Below the pieces are notes generated by a model. The model worked only from the letters and a program-made list of their open reading frames with translations, searched no databases and had not been told where the DNA came from. Shown piece after piece: positions 6,077 to 57,600 of a stretch of 64,000 nt of DNA. How positions within the stretch are numbered: position 1 is the stretch's first letter; each line of letters begins with the position of its first letter. The stretch spans positions 356,686,001-356,750,000 of the forward strand of contig OZ024742.1 of the NCBI GenBank assembly GCA_964016885.1, written 5' to 3'. Origin of the DNA: Eledone cirrhosa (lineage: Eukaryota). The position numbers and the translations under genes are program-made.

Positions 6077-6450
6077 AAGTCAAAAATGGAGTAAATAAGC
6101 AAAACATGGTCACTTGAACTTTCTAACCCCATAATGTGTCAGCCCTTCTAACCCATGTAAACATGGAAAATAGACATTAAACAGTGGTGATGATGATGAT
6201 GATTAGAGTGGTGATGAAGAAATGTTCTGTTCAACCAGATTACAATCTGGTTGAACAGAACATTTCACACAAAATATTACTGTTCACAGTTTTATTTTCT
6301 ACTTCTTCTTCATCACCACTCTAATCATCATCATCATCACCACTGTTTAATGTCTATTTTCCATGTTTACATGGGTTAGAAGGGCTGACACATTATGAGG
6401 TTAGAAAGTTCAAGTGACCATGTTTTGCTTATTTACTCCATTTTTGACTT
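6077..6450. repeat. 145-bp inverted duplication of a retroposon tail enclosing a 23-bp perfect hairpin
   Basis: 6077-6221 is the reverse complement of 6306-6450 (one mismatch seen); stem 6219-6241/6244-6266. Confidence 0.9.
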
Positions 6451-7712
6451 AGTTCGTTTATGCTTTGCCGTTCATGTATATTACTATTACACATCCAGCG
6501 GAGCATGCAAGCTTCGTTCCTCTCCAGTCTGTGTATATCCTCTGCACACAATGCCCAGGTCTCACTGCCATGTAACATTGCTGTTCGTATGCAGGAATCA
6601 TACAGCCTGCCTTTCATCTTTAGCGGCTAATAGTGGTATAAGCTCTCTGAACTTTTTCCATCCCGTTCTGACTCCAGCTACTGTACTTTCAGAGCACCCT
6701 CCACCACTGTTGATTTTGTCACCCAGGTAATGGAAGCTGTCCACTATTTCTATAGAACCATCTGTGCAATGGAATAAGCTAGTATTTTGTGGGCACTTGC
6801 TGCTACTTATTACACCAGAGCACCGGCCACATATGAAATCTATATTCTTAGTTAGTTTTCTAAGAGCCCACCAGATAATGGAGCAGGGGACTCTGTTAAA
6901 GGCTTTCTCCAAGTCAACAAAAGCTAAGTATAAGGGTCTACTTTTAGCTAGGTAGTTCTCCTGTAGTTGTCGTACAATGAAAAGAGCGTCTGTGGTACTT
7001 TTACCTGACACAAACCCGAACTGCATTTCATCTAGATCAATTCGCTCTCTGATTAGTTGCGCTATTACTTTTTCTGTGATCTTCATGACCTGGTCGATTA
7101 ATTTAATGCCTCTATAATTACCCCTATATAGAGCATCTCCTTTACCCTTGTAGCAGTTAAAGATGATGCTGCTACGCCTGTCCTTCGGAATGACCCCATT
7201 CTGTATGACTTGGTTTACTATCCGGGTGACCATAGTGTTTCCCACCATTCCAGATGCTTTCAGAATTTCAGCAACTATTTCCGAAGGCCTTACCCGTCTT
7301 CATATCTTTGATTGCCTTACTTATTATACAACCTTCAACTAGCACTGCTGGTCCCGCAATTGGATCGATGTGGGGGAGACTGTCTTTCTCCCATTTATTC
7401 TCCTCATTTAGTAGCCTTTCGTAGTGACACTTCCAAGCTACCTTCTTATCAGCGTCAGTGATGGCAAGTACACCATCATCATTAAGGACACACTTATCCC
7501 TGACAATATCACGGTTTTCCTTGACACATTGCCTAGCGATCCTGAACACCTCACGTTTTTGGAGCTCGCGTTCTAGAACATGCTTGAACTTTCTTTCCTC
7601 TGCTTCCCTTCTTGCGAAGTACACTTGTCTCCTAGCTTCCCTTCTGGCTACTTGATAGTCTTCTCTACTTCCCCCATCCCGCCATACTTTCCAAACCTGC
7701 TTTTTGGCCTTA
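6451..7712 (-). pseudogene. RTE LINE ORF fragment with RT core deleted
   Basis: KGKGDAL..GNYRGIKL, QFGFV, AFVDLEKAF present; WWALRKL joins directly to TKNIDFICGRC and YADD is missing; frameshifted. Confidence 0.9.
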
Positions 7713-7731
7713 ATTGGCTTCTATATATGTG

Positions 7732-7782
<51 letters not shown>

Positions 7783-7786
7783 ATAT

Positions 7787-8356
7787 ATCATCATCATCAT
7801 TTTATGTCCGCTTTTCCCTGCTTGCAAGGGTGGGATGGGTCTTATTCAGCACAGCATCTCTCCACTCGTCACGGTCCTTCGTCATCTCCACCATGAGCTT
7901 CAATGATCTGAGGTCTGTTCTCACCACCTCCGCCCATGTTTTTCGTGGTCTACCTCTACCACGTCTTCCTTCAACTGACATTTCCTGGCACTTCTTCACC
8001 ACCCATCAGTCATCCTCCATGCGCATCACATGTCCATACCACCTCAGTCTCCTCTCCCGTATATTACATTCTATCCCTCTCAGACACAGTTTCTCTCTCA
8101 ACATATTTATGCTGGGTCGTTCACGCACATTTACACTGCACATCCAACGGAGCATGCTTGCCTCATTTCTCTCCAGCCGTCTCATATCCTCTGCAGTTGC
8201 TGCCCATGTCTCACTACCATGCAGCATGATGCTCCTCACACAGGCATCATACAACCGGCCTTTCGTACGCAGGGAGAAACCCTTCTTCGTCAACAGAGGA
8301 AGCAGCTCCCTAAACTTCTTCCAACCCGTCCTTATTCTAGATGCTATGGCCCCGCT
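7787..8356 (-). mobile_element. 5'-truncated RTE LINE (family A) 3' end
   Basis: IRTGWKKFRELLPLL...RRLRWYGHVMR...GRPRKTW; highly similar to 20287-20850. Confidence 0.92.
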
Positions 8357-8401
<45 letters not shown>

Positions 8402-8467
8402 ATATATATATGTGTGTGTGTGTGTAAATATATATATATGTGTATAGGTATATATATATATATATAT

Positions 8468-8810
8468 ACAACAAAAAAACACACAGTCCACGCTGTAAAT
8501 GTGGCCGTGTAGGCAACATGGTAAAAACCTCCCAGCCCCACACTGTAAATGTGGTTGGTGTTAGGAAGGGCATCCAGCTGTAGAAAACCCGCCAGACAGT
8601 CCACGCTGTAATGTGGCGGTGTAGGCAACACAGTAAAAACCTCCCAGCCCCACACTGTAAATGTGGTTGGTGTTAGGAAGGGCATCCAGCTGTAGAAAAC
8701 CCGCCAGACAGTCCTATGCGAGCAAGACAACCACTCTTGCCTCAAGTGGGAAAACCCCCGTCCAAACCCATGCAAGCGTGGAACACGGACGCTAAACCCG
8801 ATGATGATGA

Positions 8811-14570: not shown

Positions 14571-14940
14571 TGTTAGAATACATGGCAAAAAACTGTGACA
14601 TTAAATCTAGTCAACTAAGAGATTGGATTTCCTCTCATGATTTTTTAAATCTCTTCATTTTTTTTTTTTTTTGACATTCACTATAAATTTTCTGAGTAAG
14701 CTGTTTCAACCACATTTCCTAATATATTATAATTATTTTAGCAAATCAAATAGTGAAACAAAAGAGTTAAACAAGGAAAGTAGAACTGAACAAAAAACAT
14801 TTGATAACCTCTATTTATTTCAGTCTCATTTATCTTTTCAATTTGCTTCAGAAACTCCTGATTAACAAGAGATATTACTTTCAAGTAGTAATGGTATATT
14901 TTTTATATATATACATGTGTGTGTGTGTGTGTGCATATCT

Positions 14941-15450
14941 ATCATCATCATCATCGTTTAACGTCCATATTCCACGCTTGCATGGGTCTGGACGGGAGTT
15001 TTCCCACTTGAGGCAAGAGTGGTTGTCTTGCTCGCATACGACTGTCTGGCGAGTTTTCTACGGCTGGATGCCCTTCCTAACACCAGCCACATTTACAGTG
15101 TGGAACTGGGAGGTTTTTACAGTGTTACCTACACGGCCACATTACAGCGTGGACTGTGTGTTTTTTGTTGTTTCGGGCTGGATGTTGTGACACCAGCATA
15201 ACTTTACATTGAAAGGGGTGGTGTGGAAGGGGTGTGGGTAGTGGGACGGGGTGTATTTTGTTAGTGGTGCCTACTGACTGTAGTAGGTTTCACTTTGTAC
15301 TTAAGGCGGGTCTTCTTTATTACTGTGTAGCGCCAAAGCTCTCGGTCCAGTGACATTGTCTTGGAGAGGTGTAAGTGTGTGAGGTCGGAATTTATCAAGT
15401 CATCCCAGGGTCTGCCTACTGCGTGGCTACTGTCTATTTTTATTGCCCTG
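14941..15450 (-). mobile_element. RTE 3' end with a single 112-bp module
   Basis: Reverse-complement homologue of 547-1317; VGRPWDDLINSDLTHLHLSK. Confidence 0.85.
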
Positions 15451-15513
15451 CAATTTTTTTTTTGTATAGATATATCCACCTTAAAGTATGTACTTTTTCC
15501 TGAAAATGATATG

Positions 15514-15544
<31 letters not shown>

Positions 15545-15547
<3 letters not shown>

Positions 15548-17065
15548 TCATCATCATCATCATCACCGTTTTACGTCCGTTCTTCTACGCTAGCATGGGT
15601 TAGACGGGTTGTCCTGTTGCGGGCAGTGTCTGGTCGGCTGACCATGCCTTGTTCATACAGGAACTGATTTGGCTTGATTTCTACAGCTGGATGCCCTTCC
15701 TAACACCAACCTCATTTACAGTGAGTGCTGGGTGCTTTTTCGTGGCACCTACACGTCCACTTTACAGTGTGGGCTGGGTGCTTTTTTGCCGTGGCACCTC
15801 CACGACCACCTTGCGGTGGGGTGTGTGGGGGCATATTGTCTATATGCTTCAGTTTGTACCCATGGGAGGTCTGGTACTCTGTATTACTGCATGACGCCAG
15901 AGGTCATGGTCGTGTGTCATTGCCTTTGAGAGGTGTAATTGGGTAAGGTCGGCTTTTATCACCTCATCCCAGGTCATCTTGGGTCTCCCCACTCTGCGGT
16001 TTCCATCGACTTCTAGTGCTCTGCACATTTTTATGCAGCTGTCATCCTTCATACGCATCACATGTCCATACCAGCGCAACCGCCTCTCCTGCACACAGCA
16101 TTTGATTCCTCTTATGCTCAGTTTCTCTCTCAATTCATTTATGCTTTGTCGTTCACGTATATTACTTTTTACACATCCATCGGAGCATGCAGGCTTCGTT
16201 TCTCTCTAATCTACGTAAGTCTTCCACCTTCAGCGCCCAGGTCTCACTACCATGCAACATCGCTGTTCGGATACACGCATCATACAGTCTGCCTTTCATT
16301 CTGTGGGAGAAGCCTTTTGCAGCTAGCAGTGGTAGTAGTTCCCTAAACTTCTTCCATCACGTTCTTACCCTAGTTATTGTACTTTCTGAACACCCACCTC
16401 CGCTGCTAATTCGGTCACCTAGGTAGCAGAAGCTGTCTAGTGTTTCTACAGAGCCCTCCCAGAGATTGGTGGTACTTGTTTCCTGTGGCTGTTTGCTGCT
16501 TGCTGTCCCAGCACAGCTGCTGCATGTGAAGCCTACATTCTTAATTAAGCTTCCTGAGATCCTGCTACATCTCTTGTGTACCCATTGTTTGCATTTGGGG
16601 CAGAGAATGGAATTCCTACTTACACCTTTCCTACATACTGAGCAAGGCCATTTCCCTGAGGGGATCTGGGTTCTGTTTTCTCGTCTACTTACAAGGACCT
16701 TAGTCTTTGTCATGTTGACTTTGAGACCCTTTCTTTCTAGTCCCTGCTTCCAAGTTTGAAATTTCTTCTCTAGTTCTACCATAGATTCAGCTATAAGTGC
16801 GAGGTCATCAGCATACAGGAGTTCCCATAGGCATCCGGTCTTAAACTCCTCCGTTATTGCCTACAGGACTATGATGAACAGGAGGGGGCTGTACGCTAAA
16901 TTCCTCACTATACTCATTGCTAATCCTAACTTTGCTGACTGCTCCCCTATACCTGGCTTGTACCGCTTTCACAAGCCATTCATCTACTCCTAGTTTTCTA
17001 AGAGCCCACCTGATTACAGCACGTGGATCTCTGTCAAAGGCTTTCTCAAGGTCGACAAATGCCAA
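15545..17065 (-). mobile_element. 5'-truncated RTE LINE (family B): RT core, C4HC3 zinc finger, long 3' UTR
   Basis: AFVDLEKAFDR, ELLYADDL, CSVC..CPKC..HKRC..CSSC, RRLRWYGH; frameshifts and stops; (TGA)n tail at 15545. Confidence 0.93.
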
Positions 17066-17139
17066 ATATATATATAAATGAAAGTATATAAATTATTGTG
17101 AGCGTGAAGCCAACAGTATTTCATAATATATATACACAC

Positions 17140-17688
17140 ATGTGCAGGAGAGGCGGTTACGCTGGTATGGACATGTGATGCGTATGAAGGATGACAGCTG
17201 CATAAAAAGGTGCAGAGCACTAGAAGTTGATGGAAACCGCGGAGTGGGGAGACCCAAGATGACTTGAGATGAGGTGATAAAAGCCGACCTTACCCAACTA
17301 CACCTCTCAAAGTCAATGACACACGACCGTGACTTCTGGCGTCACGCAGTAATACAGGGTACCCGACCTCCCATGGGTACATGCTGAAGCATATAAACAA
17401 TATGCCCCCCCCCCCCACCGCAAGGTGGTCGTGGAGGTGCCACGGCAAAAAAGCACCCAGCCCACACTGTAAAGTGGACGTGTAGGCGCCACGAAAAAGC
17501 ACCCAGCACTCACTGTAAATGAGGTTGGTGTTAGGAAGGGCATCCAGCTGTAGAAATCAAGCCAGATCAGTTCCTGTATGAGCAAGGCATGGTCAGCCGA
17601 CCAGACACTGCCCACAACAGGACAACCCGTCTAACCCATGCTAGCGTGGAAGAACGGACGTAAAACGGTGATGATGATGATGATGATG

Positions 17689-17689
<1 letters not shown>
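17140..17689 (+). mobile_element. RTE family B 3' end, inverted relative to the neighbouring copy
   Basis: Near-identical reverse complement of ~15545-16092. Confidence 0.92.
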
Positions 17690-17721
<32 letters not shown>

Positions 17722-19177: not shown

Positions 19178-19861
19178 TACCTAACCTTAGGAGATACATA
19201 GACAGACAGCTTCATAAGGCCCTCCTTCAGTAAGTTGTCAGTTAATAGACCTTTGCTTTGGATGCTTGTGCTTGAAATAATTTATTTTACCAGAACCACA
19301 AGAAATTGGAATAAAAGAATAAAGTACTATAGTTAATAAGGAGCATTGTAAGATGTGTCATAAATCATTGATAATGTTCAAAAACCCATTTTTGTTTTGA
19401 ACCATTCCTGCTTCACATTTGAAAAGTGAGTGATAGCCCTGAAATATCAAATTGAAATATACTGGATGAAAACATTTTGTTTTGTTTTATTGTCATCGTT
19501 TGCCCTTTATATATCTCTACTGCATTGTACAAGCTTTTTGAAACTTATCAGTCATGGAAAAACTATTTTCCGATGATTATCCTGTCATACATAAATGGAA
19601 AAAATGAAAGGAAATTTCATTTCTCACTCTTAGTACGGCTGTTACTCAAATATAAGTATGTATACGCACAAACATATATGTATACAGACGCACAGTAGTA
19701 TGTATATATATACATACATGCACACACATATATATATATGTACGTATGGGTCCACCGAACATTTATTATAATGCTCGGTTTGTTTGTAAACAAACATCCC
19801 AAATTAAGCTGTAGAGTGTTTAGCAACCATCGTTGCCCTTTTGTTCAACACTGACAAAGGA

Positions 19862-19904
19862 ACGATGTACTAGTTTCAAGCTTATTAGCTATCGTCAGCA
19901 TCGT
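19862..19904 (-). ncRNA. Minimal type I hammerhead ribozyme (Penelope-type)
   Basis: Minus strand reads ACGATG-CTGACGA-TAGCT AATA AGCTT-GAA-ACTAGT-A-CATCGT; GUA cleavage triplet; palindromic stem III. Confidence 0.8.
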
Positions 19905-20126
19905 ATACCTTTCAGCCAGATGATTAAACATCTGAAAGTATATACTTTTCTTATGCATATTAACGGCTGAGCAGCCTAATTTGCATATTGAGTGAGTTAG
20001 TCAGTTGGGCGCACCGAAAACGATAAATGACTAACTCACTCGATATGCAAATTAGGCTGCTCAGCCGTTAATATGCATGAGAAAAGTATATACTTTCAGA
20101 CGTTCAATCATCTGGCAGAAAGGTAT

Positions 20127-20169
20127 ACGATGCTGACGATAGCTAATAAGCTTGAAACTAGTACATCGT
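20127..20169 (+). ncRNA. Minimal type I hammerhead ribozyme (Penelope-type)
   Basis: ACGATG-CTGACGA-TAGCT AATA AGCTT-GAA-ACTAGT-A-CATCGT; predicted cleavage after A20163; stem I extends via AAAGG/CCTTT. Confidence 0.8.
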
Positions 20170-20286
20170 TCCTTTGTCAGTGTTGAACATAAGGGCAACG
20201 ATGGTTGCTAAACACTGTACAGCTTAATTCTGGATGTTTGTTTACAAACAAACCGAGCATTATAATAAATGTTTGGTGAACCCATA

Positions 20287-23200
20287 CATCATCATCATCA
20301 TCATTTTACGTCCACTTTTCCCTGCTTGCAAGGGTGGGACGGGTCTTATTCAGCACAGCATCTCTCCACTCATCACGGTCCTTCGTCATCTCCACCATGA
20401 GCTTCAATGATCTGAGGTCTGTTCTCACCACCTCCGCCCATGTTTTTCGTGGTCTACCTCTACCACGTCTTCCTTCAACTGGCAATTCCTGGCAATTCTT
20501 CACCCATCGGTCATCCTCCGTGCGCATCACATGTCCATACCACCTCAGTCTCCTCTCCCGTACACTACATTCTATCCCTCTCAGACACAGTTTCTCTCTC
20601 AACACATTTATGCTGGTTCGTTCACGCACATTTACACTGCACATCCAACGGAGAATGCTTGCCTCATTTCTCTCCAGCCATCGCATATCCTCTGCAGTTG
20701 CTGCACATGTATCACTACCATGCAGTATCGCGCTCCTCACACAGGCATCATACAACCGGCCTTTCGTACGCAGGGAGAAACCCTTCTTCGTCAACAGAGG
20801 AAGCAGCTCCCTAAACTTCTTCCAACCCATCCTTATTCTAGATACTATGGCCTCGGAACACCCTCCTACCATGCTAATCTGATTTCCTAGGTACCGGAAG
20901 CTATCCACCACTTCTATAGCGCCCTCCTGCATTTGAAAAATGTGTCTATCAATGCGACTTCTACTGTCTAATTTCCCTGTACATCTATTGCATACATATT
21001 TCTCCCTACCTGTTAGTTTGCCTGCTATCCCGCTACATATCTTGTGTACCCAGGATCTGCATTGTGTGAATTTTATAGAATTTATGCCAGCTCCTTTTCT
21101 GCATATCGAACATGGCCATTTCCCTGACGGAATCAGGGTTTTGTCCTCTTTTCTACTCATCAACACTTTTGTCTTAGTTAGATTCACTCTCAGTCCTCTT
21201 GTTTCCAACTGCTGTTTCCATATCCAGAATTTATTCTCTAGCTCCTCTACTGATTCTGCTATAAGAGCCAGATCGTCAGCATAGAGAAGTTCCCATGGAC
21301 AGCCAGTCTTAAACTCCTCTGTTATGGCTTGGAGGACTATAATGAACAAAAGCGGGCTGAGGACCGAACACTGATGTACTCCTACTTGTATCTGGAATTC
21401 CTCACTAAACTCCATTCCTACCCTGTTTTACTGAGAGTACCTCTGTACAAAGTGTGCACTGTCCTCACAAGCCATTCCTCAACACCCAGCTTCCTTAGGG
21501 ACCACCAGATGACAGATCGGGGTACCCTATCAAAGGCCTTCTCTAGTTCAACAAAGGCTAAGTATAGTGGCTTATTCTTCTCTAAGAACCTCTCTTGCAA
21601 TTGTCTCACCAAGAAGAGGGCATCTGTTGTACTCTTCCCAGGCACAAAACCAAACTGCATCTCATCTAGTTTGAACCTTTCTCTAATTAGTTGTGCTAAA
21701 ATCCTTTCTGCCACTTTCATAACCTGATCTATCAGTTTTATACCCCTATAATTGCTCCTCTCCAAAGCATCCCCTTTACCTTTGTAGCAATTTATGAGAA
21801 TACTGCTGCACCAGTCTTTGGGTATGACACCACCATATATAGCCTGATTGATGATGCGTGCAACCAGTTTAGTGCCTATGTCCCCTGATGCCTTCAGCAT
21901 CTCAGCAACTATTCCCGATGGTCCGGCAGCCTTACCATTTTTCATTTCCCTAATCGCCTCTTGGACCCTATATTCGTCAATCTCAATAGCTCGTCCCTCT
22001 GTCGGATCTACCAAGGGCAATTTCTCTCTCTCCCATTTGTTCTCCACATTCATCAGTCTCTCATAATGACATTTCCAGGCCTCCTTTTTCTGATCATTCG
22101 TGACACTAAGTACACCGGCATCATCCCGGACACATTTATCCCCAACAACATCCTGATTTGCATTGACACACTGCCTTGCAATGTGGAACACCGCACGCCT
22201 CTGATCTTCCCGTCGCAGAACATTGGCAATCCTCCTATTCTCTGCCTCCCTGCGTGCTAAGTACACCTGACGTCTAGCTTCTCTCTTAATGGCTGTATAT
22301 TCTTCCCTACTCCCACCCTTTTTCCAAGACTTCCATGCTAGTCTCTTTTGTCTCTAATAGCCTTATCTACTATGCTGTTCCACCACCAGGTCACTCTCTG
22401 TCTCGTTGGAGCTCTGCTCCAGCCACAAGTTTCATCAGTAGCCTGCAGCAAGTTGTCACGTAAGAAATTCCAGTTATTATCTATGTCATACGTCTCTAAA
22501 TCGTCTTTTTTTCGTCATATACATCTTGAAGGGCTTTCCTAAATTTGTATTTTAGTGAAAGGTATTTTAGCTTCCAGACCTTTCTTCTCCACACCTTCCT
22601 ATATGTCTCATTCCATCTCTTGCTTACTGAGATATCACTAACAACTAACCTATGCTGTGGGGTACATTCTTCCCCAGGGTATGCCTTGGTATTAGACACT
22701 ATCTGCCTGTCCCGCTGCCTAACTAGTAAGAAGTCAATCTGGCTTATGGGCTCACCAGATTTGTAGGTTATTAGGTGATTGGCAGGTTTCTGGAAGTTTG
22801 TGTTGCAAATAGTCAATGTACCTGCATCACAAAATTCAAGAAGTCTCACTCCTTCTTCATTTCTTGAACCGTAACCGTGCCCACCATGTACCCCAGTGTA
22901 ACCATCCTGGAGCTGTCCAACATGACCATTGAAGTCTCCTGCTAGCATAACGATGTCTCCGACCTCTGTCATTGCGGTTGTTTGCAAAAGTTGCTCATAA
23001 AAGCAGTCTTTCTCATCTTTGCCTAGGTCTGCTTAGGGAGCATAGGCCGAGATGATTGTCAGTAGTCTCCTACCTACAACTAATCTAAGCTTAATTATTC
23101 GATTACTAACTCGAACTACCTCTATTGTCTTATTGATCCATTTCTCAGCCAGGAAAATGCCTACTCCCCCTAACCCATCATCCTTACCTACCCGGAATAG

Positions 23201-23900
23201 CTTATAGCTAAGACGTTTGCCTACGACTAGTCTCGCAGAGGCACCTCTCCATCTCACCTTTTGCACGCAGCACACATCCAACTGCCTTCTCTCCAGCATC
23301 TCCTCTATTTCAGCAGATCTAACTCTGAGAGTGCCAACATTAAGTGTTGCAACTCTGAGATGCGACGTCTTCATATTTTGTTGTCGTTCCTATTTGTTGC
23401 TGTGCTGATAAGCGTTTTGGCATTGATACACTTGTAGCGGTTGTCTCCCTTGTGACTCACAACCCCAATAGATTAACATCTAGACGGGAAGTAGAACCCT
23501 TTCTGTAACTTCCGGTCAGAGCCCTATAAAACGAATAGCTTTCGGCTCTCTGCCTCTCATTTGCCCTTCCGGCGCCTGGCTTTCGCCAGGCGTCTTCTGC
23601 CAGCCGCGTTTGCCTGGCAATCAAAACGGTAACTACCAGCTTTGCTTCATTCTATCATTTATTTCTTTGACATGTCAACTATACTATCTACCATTGTTAA
23701 TTAAATATTATACACACAAACCATGTCTCGTTTTGTTACATTCATACAACCCAGTATCCTCGCTATACACTGGTCGGATGCCCTTCCTAACACCAGCGCC
23801 ACTTTACAGCATGGACTGGGTGCTTTTATTTGTGCCACAGCACTAGAGAGGATGTCTTACTAGACTCAAGGGCTCTCTCTACCCCTCCATTTTACAGCAT
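20287..23900 (-). mobile_element. Near full-length RTE-clade LINE (family A) with structured 5' UTR and (TGA)n tail
   Basis: Single APE+RT frame 23374-20306; 5' UTR hairpins at 23570-23620 and a GTTAGGAAGGGCATCC module at ~23775-23840; 5' boundary uncertain. Confidence 0.92.
20306..23374 (-). pseudogene. RTE ORF: AP endonuclease, reverse transcriptase and zinc finger, broken by stops and frameshifts
   Basis: ATLNVGTL, ISAYAP, AGDFNGHVG, SQIDFLL, QHRLV (APE); NYRGIKL, QFGFV, LEKAFDRV, LYADDL (RT); split over at least 4 ORFs. Confidence 0.93.
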
Positions 23901-24129
23901 GGTAATTAAAAAAAAAACAAAAAAACCTATTGACACGACGCACACACTGACACACCAACACTCATGCATACAAACCACAAACACACACATGCCACTCACA
24001 TACCAACACTCATTCATGCATACAAACACACACACCACTCACAAACATATATATATATATTACCGGCAGTACTGATACAAATACAAAATCATAATCATGT
24101 CAACTGTTGACTTTTCCCAGTCCAGTTTG

Positions 24130-24535
24130 TATATAATAATAATAATAATAATAATTGTTTGCTTTACGCTGGTAATGGCGGTGGTGGTGGTGAATGGTGG
24201 TGGATGGTGTCAGTGTAGTGGTGGTGTGTGGTGCTAGTGTGGTGGTGGTGGCAGTTGTTGGTGCTGTAATTGTTATTGTAGTTGCTGCTGCTGTTGCTGT
24301 TGTTGTCATTGTTGCTGTTGTCGCTGTTGTTGTTGTTGTTGTCGTTGTTGCTGCCGTCGCTGTTGTTGTTCTTCATTTCACTGCTGCTGTCGCTGCAGAC
24401 ATTGGTGTTGATGCTGTTATTGCTGTCGCATATATATAAATACATACATACACACACATTCAACGCAGACAACGGTGTTGTTGCCGTTGTTGTTGTTGGT
24501 GTTGCTGCTGTTGTTGTTGTAGTTGTTGCTGTGTT
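24130..24535. repeat. Mixed trinucleotide tract (AAT/GGT/GTT/GCT)
   Basis: Directly visible; gives poly-T/N/V/L frames on both strands. Confidence 0.9.
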
Positions 24536-26108
24536 GAAATCTGGTCGCATCCACTGAGATATACATATACACATACATATTGGATACCTTTTGATGGTCC
24601 TTTACCTTTTTCTTCTACAACATGGGCGCATAATAAAATACATGGAACTCTTTTAACCATCTTTTGATCTTATATATTATATTATACACACACACATATA
24701 TATATGTATATACACATACATACATCAAAAGAGTCAGCAGTATGTCAACAGGGAACAGGTCAGCCACCTTAGATAGTGTAATGAGTACTGTGGTGATGGT
24801 GGGGAGCGAGTGTAGACGTTATTGTTATTGTGGTGGTGGGGGTCAGTGAGATGTACAAGTTCATAGTTCATTTGTTCCTTGTTCCTCTCTTTTCAAAATT
24901 TGAATTCATGGCCATCTGCAATGGCGGACAAGTATATATAATATAAGAAGCAAAGAAAAGAAAATTTCAATGATAAGAAAGATCTCCTGGTAGAAGTTCA
25001 GGTGTATTCAGTGGTGGTATCCAGTTTTGGGGTATCCAATTAGAAAATCCAACGAATTATTTTGAGATGTCCACGCAAGCATTGATATATATATGTATAT
25101 GTATGTAAAATGTACGGAGAAATAACGACACATATGCCAATGAACATGCCCCCACGTTAAACACAGAGGGACTGCAAATGATAACAACAATAATAATATT
25201 CAGATATAAATATAAATGTACATATCTCTATTGGTCTCATAATTTTTCTCTCTTCCCTTGTGTTTAGCAACAGGTGGTTGTGTGATGCTGCTGACTCTAG
25301 CAGAACCCAAGAAAACACGTCTTGCCCTAACAGCCGCTGCTCCCTATTATATATATATATGTGTGCATGTATGTATATATATACATACTACTGTGCGCCT
25401 GTATACATATATGTATGTGCGTATACATACTTATATTTGTCATAAATATTTAATACTAAAAGTACTATGTGCAGAAATAGTTTTGTGTTTGAAAGAGAGT
25501 ATGACTAGAAATGATAGGAAAAAAATGATATGAGCATATTGTCACAAAAAATGTAGCATAAGAAAGAAAGAAATTCACTGCTATTAGTCAAGATTAAATG
25601 TTGCAGAAATATGCCATTTGATCACTTGCAGGAACATGCATAAGAGAGTAGTTTCTCTCCACTCTTTCCCATGTGTGCAACTGTCAGAAACTAGACATGT
25701 CTATTCAGCAGTCAACTGCGGCAAAAGTACATATGATGTGCACAGACACACACACACTTGCACATACCACTTCCCATATATATATATATATATATATATC
25801 ATCATCACTGTTTTATGTTAATTCTTCCACGCTAGCATGGGTTAGATGGGTTGTCCTGTTGTGGGCAATGTTAGATCGGCTGATCTTGTCTTGCTCATAT
25901 GGGAACTGATTTTGGCTTGATTTCTAGAGCTGGATACGCTTCCTAACACCAACCTCATTTACAGTGAGTGCTGGGTGCTTTTTATTCCATTGTGCCTATA
26001 TATATATATATATATATTGGTTGTCCCTCGTAAACGATGATGACATCATTTTTAATTTAGTTCCCTGTCTGCCGTGGGCACGAATGTGGCTGTGGAGTCC
26101 GCTCCTTG

Positions 26109-27683: not shown

Positions 27684-28250
27684 TCATCATCGTTTAAGAT
27701 CCATCATCCACGCTAGCAGGGGTTGGATGGGTTTGTCCCACTTGAGGCAAGATTGGTCGGGAGACCATGTCTCGCTCATACAGAACTGTTTCTGGCAGGT
27801 TTTCTACGGCTGGATGCCCTTCCTAACACCAACCACATTTACAGTGTGGACCGGGAACCTTTTTACCGTGCCTCCTATATGACCACTTAACAGTGTTGAC
27901 TGGGTGCTTTTGTCGTTTCATCTACAAAACCACTTTATAGTCTGAGCTGGGTGCTTTTTGTTGTCACAGCTACATGACCACTTTACAGAAGTGGGATGGA
28001 GTAGGCTGTGTGGGCTGGGGTGTATATTGGGTTAAGAGGTGCCTACTGACTGTAGGTTTAAGTTCATATGTAAGGGAAGGCGGGTCTTCTGTATAACTGC
28101 TTAACACCAAAGATCTCGATCCACTGACATTTTCTTAGAGAGGTGTAGGTGAGCAAGGTCAGTTTTTATCACCTCGTCCCAGGTTTTTCTTGGTCTACCC
28201 ACTCTGTAGCTTCTGTCAATTTTGATCGCTCTGCACGTTTTTACACAATG
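27684..28250 (-). mobile_element. RTE 3' end with long modular 3' UTR (diverged)
   Basis: GRPRKTWDEVIKTDLAHLHLSK; three diverged ~48-bp units; tail. Confidence 0.85.
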
Positions 28251-28829
28251 TTAGATGACAGGATTGGTGTGTTCAAGAAACATTCTGAATGCTATTAATT
28301 TTGTGTTTGTTGTCTCTCTTCAATTTTTCTCTCTTTTGAGAATGATAAAACAAGCATTAGATAAAGTACTGGAAATGTGTCTACTTGACTAAAACTTAGA
28401 TGAAATGATGCTCCAGCATGACAACGCTCTAATGATAGAAAACTGTAAATGAATAATTAAAAAAAAGAAAACAACTTCATACTTACCTACTTAACATATG
28501 ACATAGTAAATAAGGTTAGGCCATTTGTTTGATAAAAAGGTAAAGTTCAACCATAAATATATATATAAAGCAAAAACAATTATTTATTTTTGTTAGTAAT
28601 CATAGCCAAAGATTGGTGGCTCTTTAGCTTCAGTAGTTTCTGAGATGCTGCAATGGACACTTAATCAATCAACGACACTAGTATTTGTATTGCAGACTTT
28701 AGTTTCTTATTTCTAAACTCCAAGTTCAAATGCTGCCTCAATTGTTTATCTAGGGTCAATAAGGTATTTACAGTTGATTTAATTCATGTACAGAAGATTT
28801 TAGCTGCTGCTGTCATTGTTGTTGTCAAG

Positions 28830-29568
28830 CGTAGCCATGACATGTCGGTAGCCATCTTGAAATTTTTTCGTGGCGAAAAAGTTTTTGAAATACTGCTAAT
28901 TTTTCAAAAATCTTAAAAGGAATATTCTGGATTTTCGCAAGTTGCGACGTGGCAATAAAAGTTAAACTGAATGAATAAGAAGGGCTAAGTGATATTCTTA
29001 CGTCGGGGTCACCACTTTAGCAGTATTAGTTGTTGATGCTATCGCCACTTTAGCGGGGTGGTAGAATCAGTGGTCGTTAGTTGCCAGTGTGGTAAGTGAT
29101 AGTATCCTCGTTGGATTATCTTGTTGACATAGACGTGAGGGAAGGTCCCTCGATCTATTTACCATCTATTTACAATATTCCTTTCGTCAGGTCGCCAATT
29201 CCAGCAGCATGGATTAAAGATGTTATTGAGACACGAGTAACATAACAACGACTTCAACCGCAGTAATTAGAGATGAAATGTTTGTTTATTTATATGGTTG
29301 AAGTTACAGATACAAAGAGGTTACAAAATGGAATGTGCCATTGCGCCGTTAAGCCGGCGAGGCTAGTGGTGCAATATCTCACTGTTACATTATGCGTGTT
29401 GCTGGCTCGAAGTTTCTGGTACAAGAGCGAGATTCTTCAAATCTTCGCGGTGAATTTCTTCCTCAGGGCGCGTAGGGATACATCCTCTTCTACTGGCGCT
29501 GATTGGCTGAACTGAGCCAAATCACGCACAGAGAATGTATGTGAGCTCGCGGAATGTAGGTCACTACA
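28830..29568 (-). mobile_element. Truncated Ty3/gypsy-like LTR retrotransposon: 5' LTR, PBS region, possible gag start
   Basis: CpG-rich block starting TGTAGTGA at 29568; AATAAA near 29285; candidate ACA end at 29221; 29000-29014 ACGTCGGGGTCACCA equals a eukaryotic tRNA-Trp 3' end including CCA; ATG at 28855. Confidence 0.65.
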
Positions 29569-29701
29569 AGATGATTAAATGAAATAAGAGGTACTTAATT
29601 TGTTAGCTCCTACATGTTATTATGGATCATATTTGCACACTGAATGTATGTGGCCTAGTTGTTAGGGTATTGGATTAATATGCGTAATATTATAGGTTTG
29701 A

Positions 29702-29760
29702 CTAGCAGTGTATCCCGGCGTTGCACGGGTAAGAACATTGGTAATAGCACCTCCAATGAG
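29702..29760 (-). mobile_element. Helitron 3' terminus (body may extend to ~30390)
   Basis: Minus strand: CCCGTGCAACGCCGGG hairpin, short spacer, CTAG|T; interrupts a SINE head at its B-box; 5' TC end not located. Confidence 0.65.
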
Positions 29761-30398
29761 AAACACATATTTGTGAGTGCCTGTTAAAAACTCACGAAAA
29801 TATACCAACAGTCAAATTGTTTTATTTGGAGAAAATTAAGAAGTAGAAAGTACAGTTTAGCTGTCTACGTGGATTGTTCATAGAAATATTGTTTTGGCCT
29901 TTTGGAGTAAATGTGAAAGAGAAAGTCACAGGTTAAGTTGGCAGAAGGTTCCAGTGTCATAGCAGTAAGGGTAGGCTACTTACCTCACAAGTTCATTCGC
30001 ACTCTTTCCACTAAGTTACTCTTTCTCTCTATCCCTCTCAGTGCAGTCCCTTGCGAATTTCTCGTGTAGGCCTGGTGTAGATTTGCACCTGATCCATCTA
30101 CCTGATGCACATGTCCGCTTTGTACGACTTTTGGAGGAAGGAGTGACCAGCACTACATTATTCGGTATTATTATGAAAAGGTGTAGCAAAGAATCCCGCG
30201 TGAACTAACAGCTCTGGAGGAAACTGTTTACCTCGAAGATTCATTCGCCATCGTTCTTGTCAATGCTCCATTTACTTGGTATTTATTGGTCTACAGTTAG
30301 ATGAATGGTGCACAAAGGGTTAATGTTTATTGGCAATAATTTTTTTGAATAATAAAAGACGGGTTAAAGTGACCTACAATGTATTGGTATATAATTAT

Positions 30399-30790
30399 GG
30401 AGGTGTATGGCTTAGTAGTTAGAGCATTAGCCTTGCAATCGAAAGGTTGTGAGTTCAATTCTCAGACTGGGTGATGTGTTGTTTCCTTGAGCAAGACACT
30501 TTATTTCACATTGCTCCAGTTTACTCAGCTGTAGAAATGAGATGATAGGGACTGGGGTCCCTATTATTCCACTGCAAAGTGGTCGTGGAGGTGCCGCGGC
30601 AAAAAAGCACCCAGCCCACACTGCAAAGTGGACGTGTAGGCGCCACGGAAAAAAGCACCCAGCACTCACTGTAAATGAGGTTGGTGTTAGGAAGGGCATC
30701 CAGCTGTAGAAGTCAAGCCAGAATCAGTTCCCGTCCCACCATTGCAAGCAGGGAAAAGCGGACGTAAAATTAAATTAATGAATGAATGAA
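30399..30790 (+). mobile_element. tRNA-headed CORE-type SINE with family-A tail and (GAAT)n end
   Basis: Same head and body as 17737; tail CCCACCATTGCAAGCAGGG...GGACG. Confidence 0.87.
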
Positions 30791-30835
30791 ATGATATATA
30801 TATATATATATATACATATGTGTGTGTATGTATGC

Positions 30836-30867
<32 letters not shown>

Positions 30868-30870
30868 ATG

Positions 30871-30907
<37 letters not shown>

Positions 30908-30960
30908 ATATACATATATTTTATGTGTATGTTTATATATATGTATATGTGTATATATAT

Positions 30961-33410
30961 CATTAAACTCAGACTAGTCCCAATCGTAGCTGCCAGACGA
31001 ACTTAAGGATAGGTTTTACGAGTCCCTAATGCACACTACTGCTCTAACAGACGACAATGATTTCCTAATCATCGCAGGAGATTTTAACGGACACGTAGGT
31101 AAACACTGCGACGGCTTCAATAGAGGACATGGAGGCCATGGGGTTGGCACAAGAAATGAGGAAGGATTCAGACTTCTAGAATTCTGCGACGCCAATGACA
31201 TGTCGATATGTAACACAAACTTTAAAAAACCCGACAACCACCTGATCACCTATAGACCAGGGGACCACTCTAGTCAGATAGATTTTATCCTCATCAGAGG
31301 ACGTGGCAGATGGACGGTCGTAAACACAAAAGCCTTCTCTAGTGAGTAAAGTCCATCCCAACATAGCTTAGTTGTCAGCGACCTCACAGTCAGAACTAGA
31401 CGAACCTGGAAACAGAGGCCAACCTGGAGAAGAAAGATCTGGGAGCTAAAATACCCCTCAACCAGTAACAAAATTAAAGATATTTTACTCAACACCTACG
31501 ACAGTAAAGAAGAACAGATAGTGACATACAATGTAGAAGAGAACTGGGAGTTCCTAAAAAATAACATACTAGAGGCGACGGATGAGGTCTGTGGCTGGAG
31601 TAAGACCTCAAGCAGGAGAAGAGTGACTTGGTGGTGGAACAATAAGGTAGATGGGGCAGTTAAGGCCAAGAGACAGGCATGGAAAAAATGGAAGAATGGG
31701 GGGAGCAGGGTACATTACATAGAGACCAAGAGGGAAGCTAGGCGACAAGTATACTTAGCTAGGAGGGAAGCAGAGGATAGAAAATTCAAGCATGTTTTGC
31801 AACGTGAGGACCAGAAACAGGAGGTGTTCAAGATTGCGAGGCAGTGTGTCAGAGATAGTTGTGATGTCATTGGAGAGAAGTGTATCCGGAATGATAAAGA
31901 TGAGCTTGCCCTCACAAGTGCTGAGAAGAAAGATGCATGGAAGAGTCATTTTGATAGATTACTAAATGAGGAGAATGAATGGGAAGAAGAGACCCTACCC
32001 CAAGTAGACCCTATAGAGGGGCCAGCAGTACAAGTCAGCAGCAATGTAGTAAGTAAGGTAATCAAAGATATGAAGATGGGGAAAGATACTGGTCCATCGG
32101 GTATAGCTGCCAAGATGCTGAAGGCATCTGGGTCTGTAGGTCACACTATAACCACACGTATTGTTAACCAGGTAATACTAGAAGGTGTCATACCAAAAGA
32201 TTGGTGCAGTAGCATCATTGTCAACTGCTACAAAGGTAAAGGTGATGCACTAGATAGAGGAAACTATAGAGGTATAAAGCTGATGGACCAGGTCATGAAA
32301 TAACAGAAAGAGTTATAGCACAGTTGATTAGGGACCGGGTGAAACTAGACGAGATGCAATTTGGGTTTGTACCAGGAAGAGGCACCACTGATGCCCTCTT
32401 CCTTGTCAGGCAGTTACAGGAAAAGTACCTAGCTAAAAGTAAGCCACTCTACCTGGCATTTGTCGACCTTGAGAAAGCCTTTGACAGAGTTCCACATGCT
32501 GTAATCTGGTGGGCTCTTAGAAACACTAGACAGCTTCTGCTACCTAGGTGACTGAATTAGCAGCGGAGGTGGGTGTTCAGAAAGTACAATAACTAGGGTA
32601 AGAATGGGATGGAAGAAGTTTAGGGAACTACTACCACTGCTAGCTACAAAAAGCTTCTCCCTCAGAATGAAAGGCAGACTGTATGATGCGTGTATCCGAA
32701 CAGCGATGTTGCATGGTAGTGAGACCTGGGCGCTGAAGGTGGAAGACTTACGTAGATTAGAGAGAAATGAAGCCTGCATGCTCTGATGGATGTGTAACAG
32801 TAATATACGTGAACGACAAAGCATAAATGAATTGAGAGAGAAACTGAGCATAAGAGGAATCAAATGCTGTGTGCAGGAGAGGCGGTTTCGCTGGTATGGA
32901 CATGTGATGCGTATGAAGGATGACAGCTGGATAAAAACGTGCAGTGCACTAGAAGTCGATGGAAACCGCGGAGTTGGGAGACCCAAGATGACCTGGGATG
33001 AGGTGATAAAAGCCAACCTTACCCAATTACACCTCTCAAAGGCGATGACACACGACCGTGACCTCTGGCGTCACGCAGTAATACAGAGTACCAGACCTCC
33101 CATGGGTACAAACTGAAGCATATAGACAATATGCCCCCACACCCACCACTGCATGGTGGTCGTGGAGGTGCCACGACAAAAAACTCCCAGCCCACACTGT
33201 AAAGTGGACGTGTAGGCGCCACGAAAAAGCACCCAGCACTCACTGTAAATGAGGTTGGTGTTAGGAAGGGCATCCAGCTGTAGAAATCAAGCCAAATCAG
33301 TTCCTGTATGAGCAAGGCATGGTCAGTCGACCAGACACTGCCCACAACAGGACAACCCGTCTAACCCATGCTAGCGTGGATGAACGGACGTAAAACGGTG
33401 ATGATGATGA
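30961..33410 (+). mobile_element. RTE LINE (family B), 5'-truncated, RT core deleted at ~32520
   Basis: AGDFNGHVG, SQIDFIL, NYRGIKL, AFVDLEKAFDRV; WWALR joins directly to the TLDSFCYLG region; 3' UTR as in 17140-17689. Confidence 0.93.
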
Positions 33411-54649: not shown

Positions 54650-57600
54650 ATCACAGCTCTGAGAACTATCGAGAACATCAGATGGTACCACCACATTTCC
54701 AATAAAGAATTCCATGCATGCATCAGCCCACAGCCTTCCACCTCATAGCTATCCAGCACATGTGTTGGTATGGACATTTCCTCCACCTGCCACCAGATCA
54801 TCCTACCAGGACTTTACTCTTGTTCAATGCAGCAGCTGCAAGCTGCCCCTTGGCAGGCCCTGCACCAGATGGGTAGATACCCCCAAAGAAGGTGTCCAGA
54901 GGCTTGATGATGTCACCTCAGAGTATACAGAGGTGGCTGGCACAGGACTGCCAGCGATTGAGGACCCAGGTTGACCTGGTTGGCTCTATCCGGAGATATG
55001 TCAGGACACCACGTACCTCCTCGACTGTTGGAGGGGCAGTGCTGCACCCGTATTCTTCTCCGGAAGGCTGCACGTAGGTTGGCGTGGATGGTGGCGGGTG
55101 GTTGAGCAGTTCGGAGAAATGGTCCCGCCATTGGACTAGATGGTCATTAAGATTTATAATAACCGCCCCGTTCCGATCGTCTCGCTGATACCCGTACTGC
55201 TTCGGCTGGCCCGCTTCACCAGTTGGTAGAGTTTGCACGAGTCACCACATCCTGCTGCCCTCTCCGTCTGCTTCGCAAACTCGTGCCAGTGTGCATTCCG
55301 ATCGGCCCTAATAGCCCGAGATGTGCGACGTTGGAGATCTCGAAGATTGGGTGCATCCTCGAGTCGGGCCACTTACGCCCTCTCCATGAGTTCAAGAGTG
55401 CCGCCAGAGATCCAGTCCCGATGGCGTCTTTGGGTTGACCCAAGATGCTCCCTGGCCACCTCCACCATCGCCGCCCTGAGCGCGTTCCACTCCGGTTGCT
55501 GTTCCACTTCGTTACTCAGCATTTGGAATCGGTTTCGCAGCTCTAGCCAGAAAGCATTTCCAGCATCGAGCTTGAGTTGTGAGATATCGATCCTTTTCTG
55601 GCGGTTGGGAGGAGGTTTCGCCCGCAAACGCAGACAAAGGGTTGCTCGAACAAGAGTATGGTCTGACCCATGCTCACTGCCTGTATCAGCACCCCGATAC
55701 GCACACGAGTCAATCACTGAGCTGGCCCACTGAGATCTGACCAGGATGTAGTCAATCTGATTGGCCGTTCTTCCGTCATTGGATCGCCACGTGACGAGGG
55801 GACGCCGAGGATGTTGGAACCGAGTGTTGGTGACGATAAGACAATTGGCATCCATGAAGGACACGAGCCGTTCACCATTGTCACAGTGTACGCCTAGGAC
55901 AAAGCGTCCTAGAATGTGCCATGTTGTATCATCAGCCGGCCCCGTCCACACATTCCAGTCCCCAGCGACAATGAGAACATCACTGGAGGGGACGCCATCC
56001 ATGGTTGTTTGGAGATCAGCATAGAACTGCATCTTGTCCGCCTCATCCACATTGAGTGTGGGAGCGTAGACGGCAATTACGCTGACGTTGGAGATTTGAC
56101 CCTTCAATCTAACCAGCGCGAGTCAGTCTGAGATTGGCTGCCACACCAGCAGAGCCTCTTATGCATCGGGGCTGAGCACTACAGCGACCCCGTGAAGGCC
56201 ACTGTTGTCAGTTACGCTACTATGGTACAAGTGGTAGGAGATGTCCTTGCCAGGAACTTGGATTGGAAGATGACCAACATCGGGAAGTCGAACTTCTGAA
56301 AGGCAAGCAACACTAACGCAGTACCTGTGCAGAGCCTTCATTGTAAATGCCTGGACACCATCGTCACAAAGTCTCCGGAACAGCAAGACGCCGGGCGAGG
56401 ATGGCGTTCCAGCTGAAGTCTACAAGGCCGAGCCTGATGTCTTCGCAGCTTAGCTCCATCGAGTCTTCTCCTCGGTGTGGCCGATGGAGCGGTTCCCTGG
56501 TGACTGGAGCGAGGCAACTCTCCTACCCTTCTTCAAAAAGGGTGACAGGAAACTGTGTTCCAACTACAGTGGTAATTGACGTTGCTGCCAAGACCTTCAC
56601 ACTTCTTCTGCTGAAGAGGTTCCAGGCCATCCGTGATGTCCGTACCCGTCCTTCTTAGGGCAGCTCCCGTCCAGGGAGGGGGTGCGTTGATCAAATCTTC
56701 ATTCTCCCACGTGTCCTGGAACAACGGTGGGCACATCAACAGCCTACTGTCCTCTGCTTCATCAACTTTGCAGCTGCCTTCGACTTAGTAGATCGGGAAG
56801 CCCTATGGCGTATAATGCAGGTGGACGGCATCCCAGTGAAGTTGCTTCGTCTAATACAAGGCTACTACTACCGGTCGACTCCGGCTCGAGTGAGGGTCTA
56901 TGGTGGGGAGATAGAGTTGTTCGATGTTGGGACCGGTGTTCGGCAGGGGTGTACGCTATCGCCAACACTCTTTAACTACACCATTGATTACACACTCAAC
57001 ACAGCACTCCAAGATTACCCAGGCATAGAGTTCGGGAGAGGGTTCGTGGTGATGGACCTGGCCTATGCGGATGACATCGTGCTGATGGGCGCTAATGGGA
57101 CAGATGTACAAGGTGCTCTCGAAAGGGTGCACACTGCAGCCGCCGCTGTTGGTCTGCGAATCAATGCTGCCAAGTTGAAAGTCATGACGTCACTGGTCTC
57201 GCCTGATGCCTGGCAGCCAATATCTGTCAAGGGCGTGGACCTGGAGGATGTGGAGTCCTTCGTTTACCTGGGCTCAACAGTGGTTTCAACGGGACAGGGT
57301 GCAGCCGAGGTCAAGCATCACATAGGTGCTGCCAGATCCGCTTTTGGGCGCCTCCAGCGGTGTCTGTGGCACAGAAGAGAGATCACCTCGGCGACCAAAG
57401 AGCAAATCTACCAGGCTGTCGTTCCCATTATCCTCCTCTATGGCTGTGAAACATGGCTTATGAGGGTAGTCGATCAACGGGGGTTCGAGGTCTTCGACAA
57501 TGACTGTCTCCGCTGCATTCTTCGCTGCTGACGCATTGATCGAGTACCTACCACGAGTCTTCGTCTTCGCCCGAATCTTTGACCCCTTCCTTCAGTGCTT

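What the first reader, a model, noticed from the sequence alone, without database searches (positions are those of the whole stretch)
19748..20283. Foldback element carrying two intact, outward-facing hammerhead ribozymes, one per strand
Seen: a 536-bp palindrome with 256-bp arms and about 11 mismatches, none inside the ribozyme. Each arm holds a complete hammerhead core: stem I ACGATG/CATCGT extended by AAAGG/CCTTT, CUGACGA, stem II AGCT/AGCT, GAAA, palindromic stem III ACTAGT, GUA site (plus 20127-20169, minus 19862-19904). Known: such minimal type I hammerheads with palindromic stem III mark Penelope-like element pseudo-LTRs and are thought to cleave as dimers. However, the ends (AT|GGG...CCC|AT) look like a cut-and-paste MITE of the ISL2EU/Harbinger type. 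Inference: either an inverted-pLTR non-autonomous Penelope derivative or a DNA-transposon/ribozyme chimera. A read-through RNA would bury the ribozyme in a long dsRNA hairpin. Divergent transcription from the centre (mirrored ATGCAAAT octamer and TGACTAA motifs flank the spacer) would instead give two equivalent short self-cleaving RNAs able to pair through stem III.
Basis: partly seen in the sequence, partly recalled or inferred. Interest (0 to 1): 0.85.

Follow-up and report, generated by a model that had tools for sequence, protein, structure and literature searches.

The report
Penelope-type ribozyme repeat, inserted back-to-back
The hairpin is the middle of one insertion of a very abundant 428-base non-coding repeat that carries a predicted self-cutting RNA motif and was likely pasted as two back-to-back arms by a Penelope-type retrotransposon enzyme, a known layout, although the rule that the two arms end at two different fixed sites hints at how that enzyme copies RNA.

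Summary
The palindrome and both hammerhead motifs are real, but the boundaries and the MITE idea are wrong. GGG…CCC are internal positions of a 428-nt circularly permuted monomer (21,946 exact hits of one 20-mer; 9,768 of the 32-nt core). The true insertion spans 19591-25437: a full monomer on the minus strand, a head-to-head truncated copy split by a 5-kb LINE, and a 7-bp duplication. Partial tandems, inverted arms, (TA)n targets and a 56-nt tail are the published Penelope-like element (PLE) footprint; opposite-strand hammerhead pairs are in Cervera & de la Peña 2014. Of 93 sampled insertions 45 are inverted; 16 of 44 carry hammerheads on both strands. Less ordinary: in 31 of 31 independent inverted insertions with two intact ends, one arm has the tail and the other does not, and both arms share one haplotype. 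This points to priming from both ends of a target break at two RNA start sites (inferred). No coding partner was found; cleavage and expression are untested. The scan noted this layout before in other genomes and for a 310-nt family here. Verdict: new member of a known kind.

The parts
19583..19589 (.). left copy of 7-bp target duplication TGTCATA
   Evidence: sequence; same 7-mer at 25438-25444
19591..20029 (-). arm T: one whole 428-nt monomer plus 7 nt (monomer positions m1-m435), 3' end with tail at 19591
   Evidence: 94% to family consensus
19591..19646 (-). 56-nt tail between the two fixed 3' end sites (m379 'N', m435 'T'), with a short hairpin before T
   Evidence: 2,810 exact tail-end+(TA)n and 2,921 tail-to-next-monomer junctions in the genome
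   Evidence: present left of GGG in the intact copies; consensus
19862..19904 (-). type I hammerhead motif, predicted cut after GUA between 19868 and 19867
   Evidence: cleavage untested
19939..19986 (-). octamer ATGCAAAT (19979-19986) and AAGTATATA box (19939-19947), putative internal promoter of arm T
   Evidence: spacing 39 nt here, 40 nt in 10 of 11 sister-family copies that hold both motifs; function inferred
20028..20029 (.). head-to-head junction of the two 5'-truncated arms, 2-nt microhomology TG
   Evidence: sequence; junction offsets in other insertions -54 to +17
20029..20287 (+). arm N, proximal part (m28-m286)
   Evidence: same diagnostic haplotype as arm T at 15 of 15 sites
20045..20092 (+). 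octamer (20045-20052) and AAGTATATA box (20084-20092) of arm N
20127..20169 (+). type I hammerhead motif, predicted cut after GUA between 20163 and 20164
   Evidence: cleavage untested
20288..25347 (-). full-length LINE with (GAT)n tail, broken ORF and about 1.9-kb 5' UTR, inserted into arm N (RTE-type label recalled, not tested); holds a 330-bp secondary insert at about 23436-23764
   Evidence: RVT_1, PHD; shared 5' end at 25347 in the 14 other copies examined; colinear with them
25348..25437 (+). arm N, distal part (m288-m378), 3' end without tail
   Evidence: 96.7% to arm T; shares two variants found together in 1 of 64 monomers
25438..25444 (.). right copy of target duplication TGTCATA

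Best explanation
This is one insertion of a non-coding 428-nt hammerhead-bearing repeat, likely mobilised in trans by a Penelope-like (RT plus GIY-YIG) protein, and the foldback is likely the scar of the insertion reaction rather than a functional two-ribozyme device. Shown: monomer, copy number, two fixed 3' ends 56 nt apart, scattered 5' ends, (TA)n targets, partial tandems, head-to-head arms, one end type per arm, shared haplotype of the arms. Inferred: RNA is read through tandem copies from an internal octamer/TATA promoter; the protein cuts both strands of AT-rich DNA; each target 3' end primes reverse transcription, one at site N and one at site T of RNA from the same source locus; the two incomplete cDNAs are joined 5' to 5' by end joining. 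If only one cDNA is joined, a direct copy results. The hammerhead would process multimeric RNA, probably as a dimer or with protein help; its activity is untested and may not be needed for insertion.
For: Counts. Architecture of 93 insertions: 45 direct, 45 head-to-head, 3 other. End rule: 32 of 32 (31 independent) inverted insertions with both ends at a fixed site are T+N, none T+T or N+N; 13 more have one arm cut short; P about 3e-11 if ends were independent at the 27:15 ratio of direct copies. A second set gave 17 of 17 among 25 inverted clusters. Arms agree at 338 of 353 diagnostic sites against 52% for unrelated arms; 3.6% against 8.9% divergence in 25 pairs. Arm lengths are uncorrelated (rho 0.06) and in 10 of 31 neither arm is nested in the other. 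A protein-coding PLE family in the same genome (RT+GIY-YIG; 5,901 exact hammerhead hits) has the same U.U-closed hammerhead, (TA)n target, 54-nt tail and T+N rule in 6 of 6 scorable inverted pairs. In vitro, a PLE protein cuts and extends both strands and starts at two internal sites that define the tail (PMC11167929). Stem I pair m129:m165 is U-G, G-U or A-U, paired in 42 of 43 loci.
Against: No coding element with sequence similarity to the monomer was found in 80 PLE-related loci; only 50 loci from 150 scored of 10,596 GIY-YIG candidates were read. The core is not significantly better conserved than its surroundings in 45 loci chosen without regard to it (Fisher p 0.29 and 0.40; core intact in 39 of 45). 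A sister family has one T+T pair among 5 scorable. PMC11167929 saw no difference in start site between strands. Gene conversion could homogenise arms, and central deletions could hide nesting. The sample needs an exact anchor match and comes from the first 30.7 Mb of one contig, so the inverted share is probably overstated. No RNA evidence.
Confidence: 0.8

Rival explanations
1. Same family and enzyme, but the inverted arm arises by self-priming or snap-back: one cDNA (or an antisense RNA) folds back and is copied, as proposed in PMC3846280.
For: Arms share one haplotype; 21 of 31 pairs are nested one way or the other, the window's included; some junctions overlap by 10-54 nt.
Against: 10 of 31 pairs are not nested; arm lengths are independent; many junctions have small gaps or filler, not palindromes; snap-back gives no reason for the second arm to stop at the other fixed site.
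Confidence: 0.12
2. As the best explanation, but the template is specifically a hammerhead-cut, ligated RNA circle copied round and round (retrozyme model), not a linear read-through RNA. This is a sub-case of the best explanation.
For: Seamless circular permutation; 56 of 133 arms exceed one unit, up to 3.2 kb; near-identical units in L208; circles are shown for other retrozymes (PMC7229834, passages).
Against: Neighbouring units differ at 11-16 sites in L298 and L300; in the strictly alternating A/B array L293 the opposite arm is a third haplotype, which fits later local duplication better than a dimer circle. 5' ends are not enriched at the cut site (2 seen, 2.2 expected), which neither proves nor excludes circles.
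Confidence: 0.35
3. A cut-and-paste MITE (ISL2EU/Harbinger type) or DNA-transposon/ribozyme chimera bounded by GGG…CCC.
For: At this locus alone the arms seem to end at AT|GGG and CCC|AT.
Against: 0 of 90 outer ends at that position; half of the insertions have no inverted arm; the right end is a LINE insertion point; contigs of a public run continue past 20287 with family sequence (loose ends).
Confidence: 0.01
4. A selected two-ribozyme device in which divergent transcription from a conserved centre makes two RNAs that pair through stem III.
For: Each arm here keeps octamer, TATA-like box and hammerhead; palindromic stem III allows dimer folds (PMC4209133).
Against: Junctions are scattered over the monomer and only 16 of 44 inverted insertions hold a core on both strands; tandem copies already supply a partner ribozyme in cis; a read-through RNA buries the motif.
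Confidence: 0.04

Closest known systems
Metazoan non-LTR retrozymes (PMC7229834; bioRxiv 10.64898/2026.07.22.740005)
   Same: Non-coding monomer of a few hundred nt with one type I hammerhead per unit, dispersed monomers and tandem arrays, tens of thousands of copies, proposed PLE dependence; U.U at the base of stem II as in axolotl HHR_Amex2.
   Different: Circular RNA not shown here; no PLE with a homologous pLTR found; the word 'inverted' does not occur in the main text of PMC7229834, whereas about half of sampled insertions here are head-to-head.
EN+ Penelope-like element insertions with inverted pLTR and tail (PMC3846280; PMC8557442); Neptune clade for the (TA)n bias
   Same: Partial tandems, adjacent inverted 5'-truncated copy, tail at one end only, short TSD where visible, microsatellite targets.
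   Different: No ORF; tail 56 nt rather than 30-40; the one-end-only tail is counted here as a near-strict rule.
Minimal hammerheads of PLE pLTRs (PMC4209133)
   Same: Core, tiny palindromic stem III, dimer-type architecture; 'dual min-HHRs ... ~100-700 bp but in opposite strands' already reported in Schistosoma.
   Different: No G10.1-C11.1 pair; stem I is long and extended.
Poseidon PAc of Anolis (PMC11167929)
   Same: Two internal start sites that define the tail; AT-rich target; hammerhead upstream of the start sites.
   Different: Autonomous; no strand-specific use of the two sites was seen in vitro.

Membership tests
Non-LTR retrozyme | tandemly repeated monomer with a type I hammerhead in each unit | tested here: met
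   428-nt unit, arrays of 2 to more than 30 units; 2,921 exact junctions
Non-LTR retrozyme | no coding capacity | tested here: met
   longest stop-free frame in the doubled consensus 67 aa
Non-LTR retrozyme | self-cleavage and circular RNA in vivo | not testable with these tools
   no RNA holder listed; only contigs laid
Non-autonomous PLE derivative | 5' truncation, partial tandems, head-to-head inverted copy | tested here: met
   45 of 93 inverted; 5' ends scattered
Non-autonomous PLE derivative | optional 3' tail, present at one end | tested here: met
   31 of 31 and 17 of 17
Non-autonomous PLE derivative | AT-rich or microsatellite target, TSD where visible | tested here: met
   flanks; 2,810 exact end+(TA)n; 7-bp duplication in the window, 9-bp in L069 (by eye)
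Non-autonomous PLE derivative | homology to the pLTR of an RT+GIY-YIG element | tested here: inconclusive
   none in 80 loci; most PLE candidates not read
PLE minimal hammerhead | conserved core with palindromic stem III | tested here: met
PLE minimal hammerhead | G10.1-C11.1 pair closing stem II | tested here: not met
   U.U in 42 of 44 loci; U.U also reported for a canonical axolotl motif
PLE minimal hammerhead | cleavage as dimer or with protein | not testable with these tools
   needs in vitro assay
MITE (ISL2EU/Harbinger) | fixed terminal inverted repeats at GGG/CCC shared by copies | tested here: not met
   0 of 90 outer ends
MITE (ISL2EU/Harbinger) | DDE transposase partner with the same ends | not tested
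   not sought once the ends proved internal

The most novel reading that the evidence does not exclude
Penelope-type integration is an obligately asymmetric twin-priming reaction: a dimeric protein holds RNA from one source and assigns one of two start sites to each end of the target break, so the 'tail' and the inverted pLTR are two sides of one event. At least three non-coding hammerhead families and one coding family in this genome would share this machinery, and the 428-nt RNA, with its own octamer/TATA promoter, would be a minimal circularisable substrate on which to test it.
Probability: 0.45. Interest if true: 0.62.

Novelty: new member of a known kind. Interest (0 to 1): 0.33.

Why it matters
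The motif and layout are ordinary for Penelope-type elements, so the locus itself is not a discovery. The family is useful: more than ten thousand fairly young insertions give a countable footprint for an open question, how PLE inverted and tandem structures form (named as open in PMC8557442 and PMC11167929). The T+N rule and the shared haplotype of the arms make a sharp prediction for the existing in vitro system. The many loci that would yield long double-stranded RNA may also feed small-RNA silencing (inferred).

Tried and rejected
Rfam found no hammerhead; its miRNA matches reflect the hairpin. A 5-kb element with inverted arms (L023) was a LINE inserted into a copy, not a partner. L069 is a copy inserted into another PLE, not a parent. 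L097, L116, L117 hold monomers near GIY-YIG ORFs without shared sequence. Partner search by blastn and nhmmer over 80 loci was negative; the weak hit led to a non-coding sister family. The 310-nt family shows no similarity outside the hammerhead (score 43, best of 200 shuffles 46). Excess conservation of the core: not significant. Clusters of 5' ends at m125-135 or m107-134 fail scan correction (P 0.96, 0.39). Alternating A/B arrays as proof of a dimer circle: rejected for L293; the same script gave no usable rows for L162. LINE targeting of the CCCAT site: 6 insertions among 7 places, the window's included, no control site searched, so not evidence. Sequencing runs: no RNA holder listed; contigs cannot show ends or strand. 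No match in metagenome contigs. No look-alike by sequence among earlier findings. Paper searches that did not return the twin-priming synthesis or a description of this family: (taxon words in 29, 56, 77 were my guess; the organism was not identified).

Full report
Observation. The inverted repeat is real: arms 19744-20006 and 20025-20287, 11 mismatches over 256 bp, none in the hammerhead. That last point is weak (P=0.13). Both arms hold a complete core with stem I ACGATG/CATCGT, stem II AGCT/AGCT closed by U.U, and palindromic ACTAGT. Rfam does not recognise it.

The boundaries are wrong. The window lies in a 3.0-Gb genome where the stretch has thousands of candidates. Intact copies continue beyond GGG and CCC with the same sequence. 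Sixty-four near-full copies give a 428-nt unit that runs into itself, with the core at m132 and the predicted cut after m162. Exact counts: 9,768 for the 32-nt core, 21,946 for a 20-mer outside it, 2,921 tail-to-head junctions, 2,810 tail ends running into (TA)n. In the window, arm T is a whole monomer (20029 to 19591, minus). Arm N starts at 20029, is split after 20287 by a full-length LINE whose 5' end at 25347 is shared by the 14 other copies examined, and resumes at 25348-25437. TGTCATA flanks both outer ends. The apparent right terminus is thus a LINE insertion point, and 0 of 90 outer ends of inverted insertions fall there. The MITE reading fails.

Family architecture. I fetched 81 of the 100 listed places and all 100 (contig C1, first 30.7 Mb), giving 93 insertions: 45 direct, 45 head-to-head, 1 tail-to-tail, 1 doubled, 1 cut by the locus edge. 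Short matches confined to the microsatellite-like part were dropped before counting. 3' ends fall at m379 (N) or m435 (T); both read TTAT into (TA)n. The 133 5' ends are scattered, with no excess at the cut site. Of the 45 inverted insertions, 32 have both ends at a fixed site and all 32 are T+N (31 independent; P about 3e-11); 13 have one arm cut short. A set chosen by similarity to the central palindrome gave 17 of 17 among 25 (two or three are multi-part clusters). The arms share subfamily alleles at 338 of 353 sites against 52% between insertions. Arm lengths are uncorrelated; 14 pairs have N nested in T, 7 T in N, 10 neither.

Relatives in the genome. GIY-YIG search gave 10,596 candidates, 150 scored; 50 loci fell into several RT+GIY-YIG families. 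One has a CX4CxxC linker (Neptune-type by the description in PMC8557442), a U.U-closed hammerhead with palindromic stem III, 5,901 exact hits, ends 54 nt apart and T+N in 6 of 6 scorable inverted pairs, one more having a truncated arm; L109 is a 3,266-bp palindrome of it with two outward hammerheads. It shows no sequence similarity to the monomer, so it is an analogue and only a candidate partner. Two further non-coding families exist: a 310-nt unit (8,712 hits; same core and loop 2, different stems) and a shorter unit (616 hits) that keeps ATGCAAAT 40 nt before AAGTATATA, as ours does at 39 nt. In that family 4 of 5 scorable pairs are T+N (one scored by eye) and one is T+T.

Is the ribozyme under selection? 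In 45 loci chosen by a non-hammerhead anchor the core is intact in 39. Shared variants in the motif fall at tolerated places: N7, H17 (A to U), loop 2, and pair m129:m165 as U-G 27, G-U 8, A-U 6 (42 of 43 paired); shared changes at m128 and m166 weaken one pair in 3 loci each. The core is not significantly more conserved than flanking sequence. Structure-keeping variation is suggestive; activity is untested. Published minimal hammerheads cleave poorly alone (PMC4209133), the Anolis one needs protein and is dispensable for insertion in vitro (PMC11167929), and 1 of 9 Xenopus dimers cleaved.

Mechanism. Shown steps are the footprint above. Inferred steps: transcription through tandem units, double-strand cut in AT-rich DNA by a PLE protein, priming from both target ends at sites N and T on RNA of one source, end joining of two truncated cDNAs. 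Snap-back copying explains the shared haplotype but needs extra deletions in 10 of 31 cases and does not explain the T+N rule. Circle against linear template is open: long near-identical arms fit a circle, diverged neighbours and the L293 result do not require one.

Literature. PMC4209133 (parts 1-2 of 4 read) reports opposite-strand hammerhead pairs 100-700 bp apart. PMC3846280 (passages) and PMC8557442 (passages) describe the inverted pLTR and a tail at one end; the former proposes self-priming. PMC11167929 (parts 1-2 of 4) maps two start sites to the tail. PMC7229834 (passages) and bioRxiv 10.64898/2026.07.22.740005 (parts 1-3 of 5) define retrozymes and link them to PLEs. No supplements were opened; they may list this family or the end rule. 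The one-site-per-arm synthesis did not turn up, which cover open-licence text only. Earlier notes of this scan report the same layout in other genomes and for the 310-nt family here; they came after my reading was recorded and are not independent support.

Verdict. A new member of the retrozyme / non-autonomous PLE kind, in its usual inverted insertion form. Interest 0.33, carried by the end rule and its testability rather than by the foldback.

Noticed in passing
L209-L238, L102, L106, L107, L109, L115: Protein-coding Neptune-like PLE family with a U.U-closed hammerhead, 5,901 exact hits, 54-nt tail and the same T+N rule; it also inserts into the (TA)n beside the 428-nt family (L024).
   Followed up: partly
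L239-L268: 310-nt hammerhead repeat family (8,712 exact hits) in long back-to-back arrays; same core and loop 2 as the 428-nt family, with all three stems changed.
   Followed up: partly
L301-L330: Third non-coding hammerhead family (616 exact hits) sharing the octamer and AAGTATATA box at the same spacing; one inverted pair (L317) has tails at both ends.
   Followed up: partly
L293:1515-6260 and L162:3837-5773: Arrays whose units alternate strictly A/B (about 15 differences at lag 1, 1-2 at lag 2); in L293 the opposite arm is a third haplotype.
   Followed up: partly
L294-L297: Satellite-like arrays of more than 20-30 mosaic units of the monomer on contig C1, probably grown by unequal exchange.
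   Followed up: no
window 20288-25347; L012:2033-2085; L284-L292: The same LINE family, or its 3' fragment, sits at the CCCAT site of the monomer in at least 7 loci; no control was run, so targeting is not shown.
   Followed up: partly
window 23436-23764: A 330-bp repeat with a short ATACAC duplication inserted in the LINE 5' region; the same repeat follows a monomer in L027.
   Followed up: no
L069:1-2530: Monomer tandem inserted with a 9-bp duplication into another PLE's GIY-YIG region, and part of that composite then duplicated in inverted orientation (624 bp, 97%).
   Followed up: partly
L282, L305, L307: Yet another hammerhead-like repeat with the core CTGATGA-TTTC…GAAA-CAG-TT, seen as short inverted inserts in (TA)n.
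   Followed up: no
window 6400-8800, 14900-17700, 27700-33400, 55373-57531: The window is dominated by fragments of LINEs and their SINE-like 3' ends; the only ORFs of 200 aa or more are retroelement-derived.
   Followed up: no
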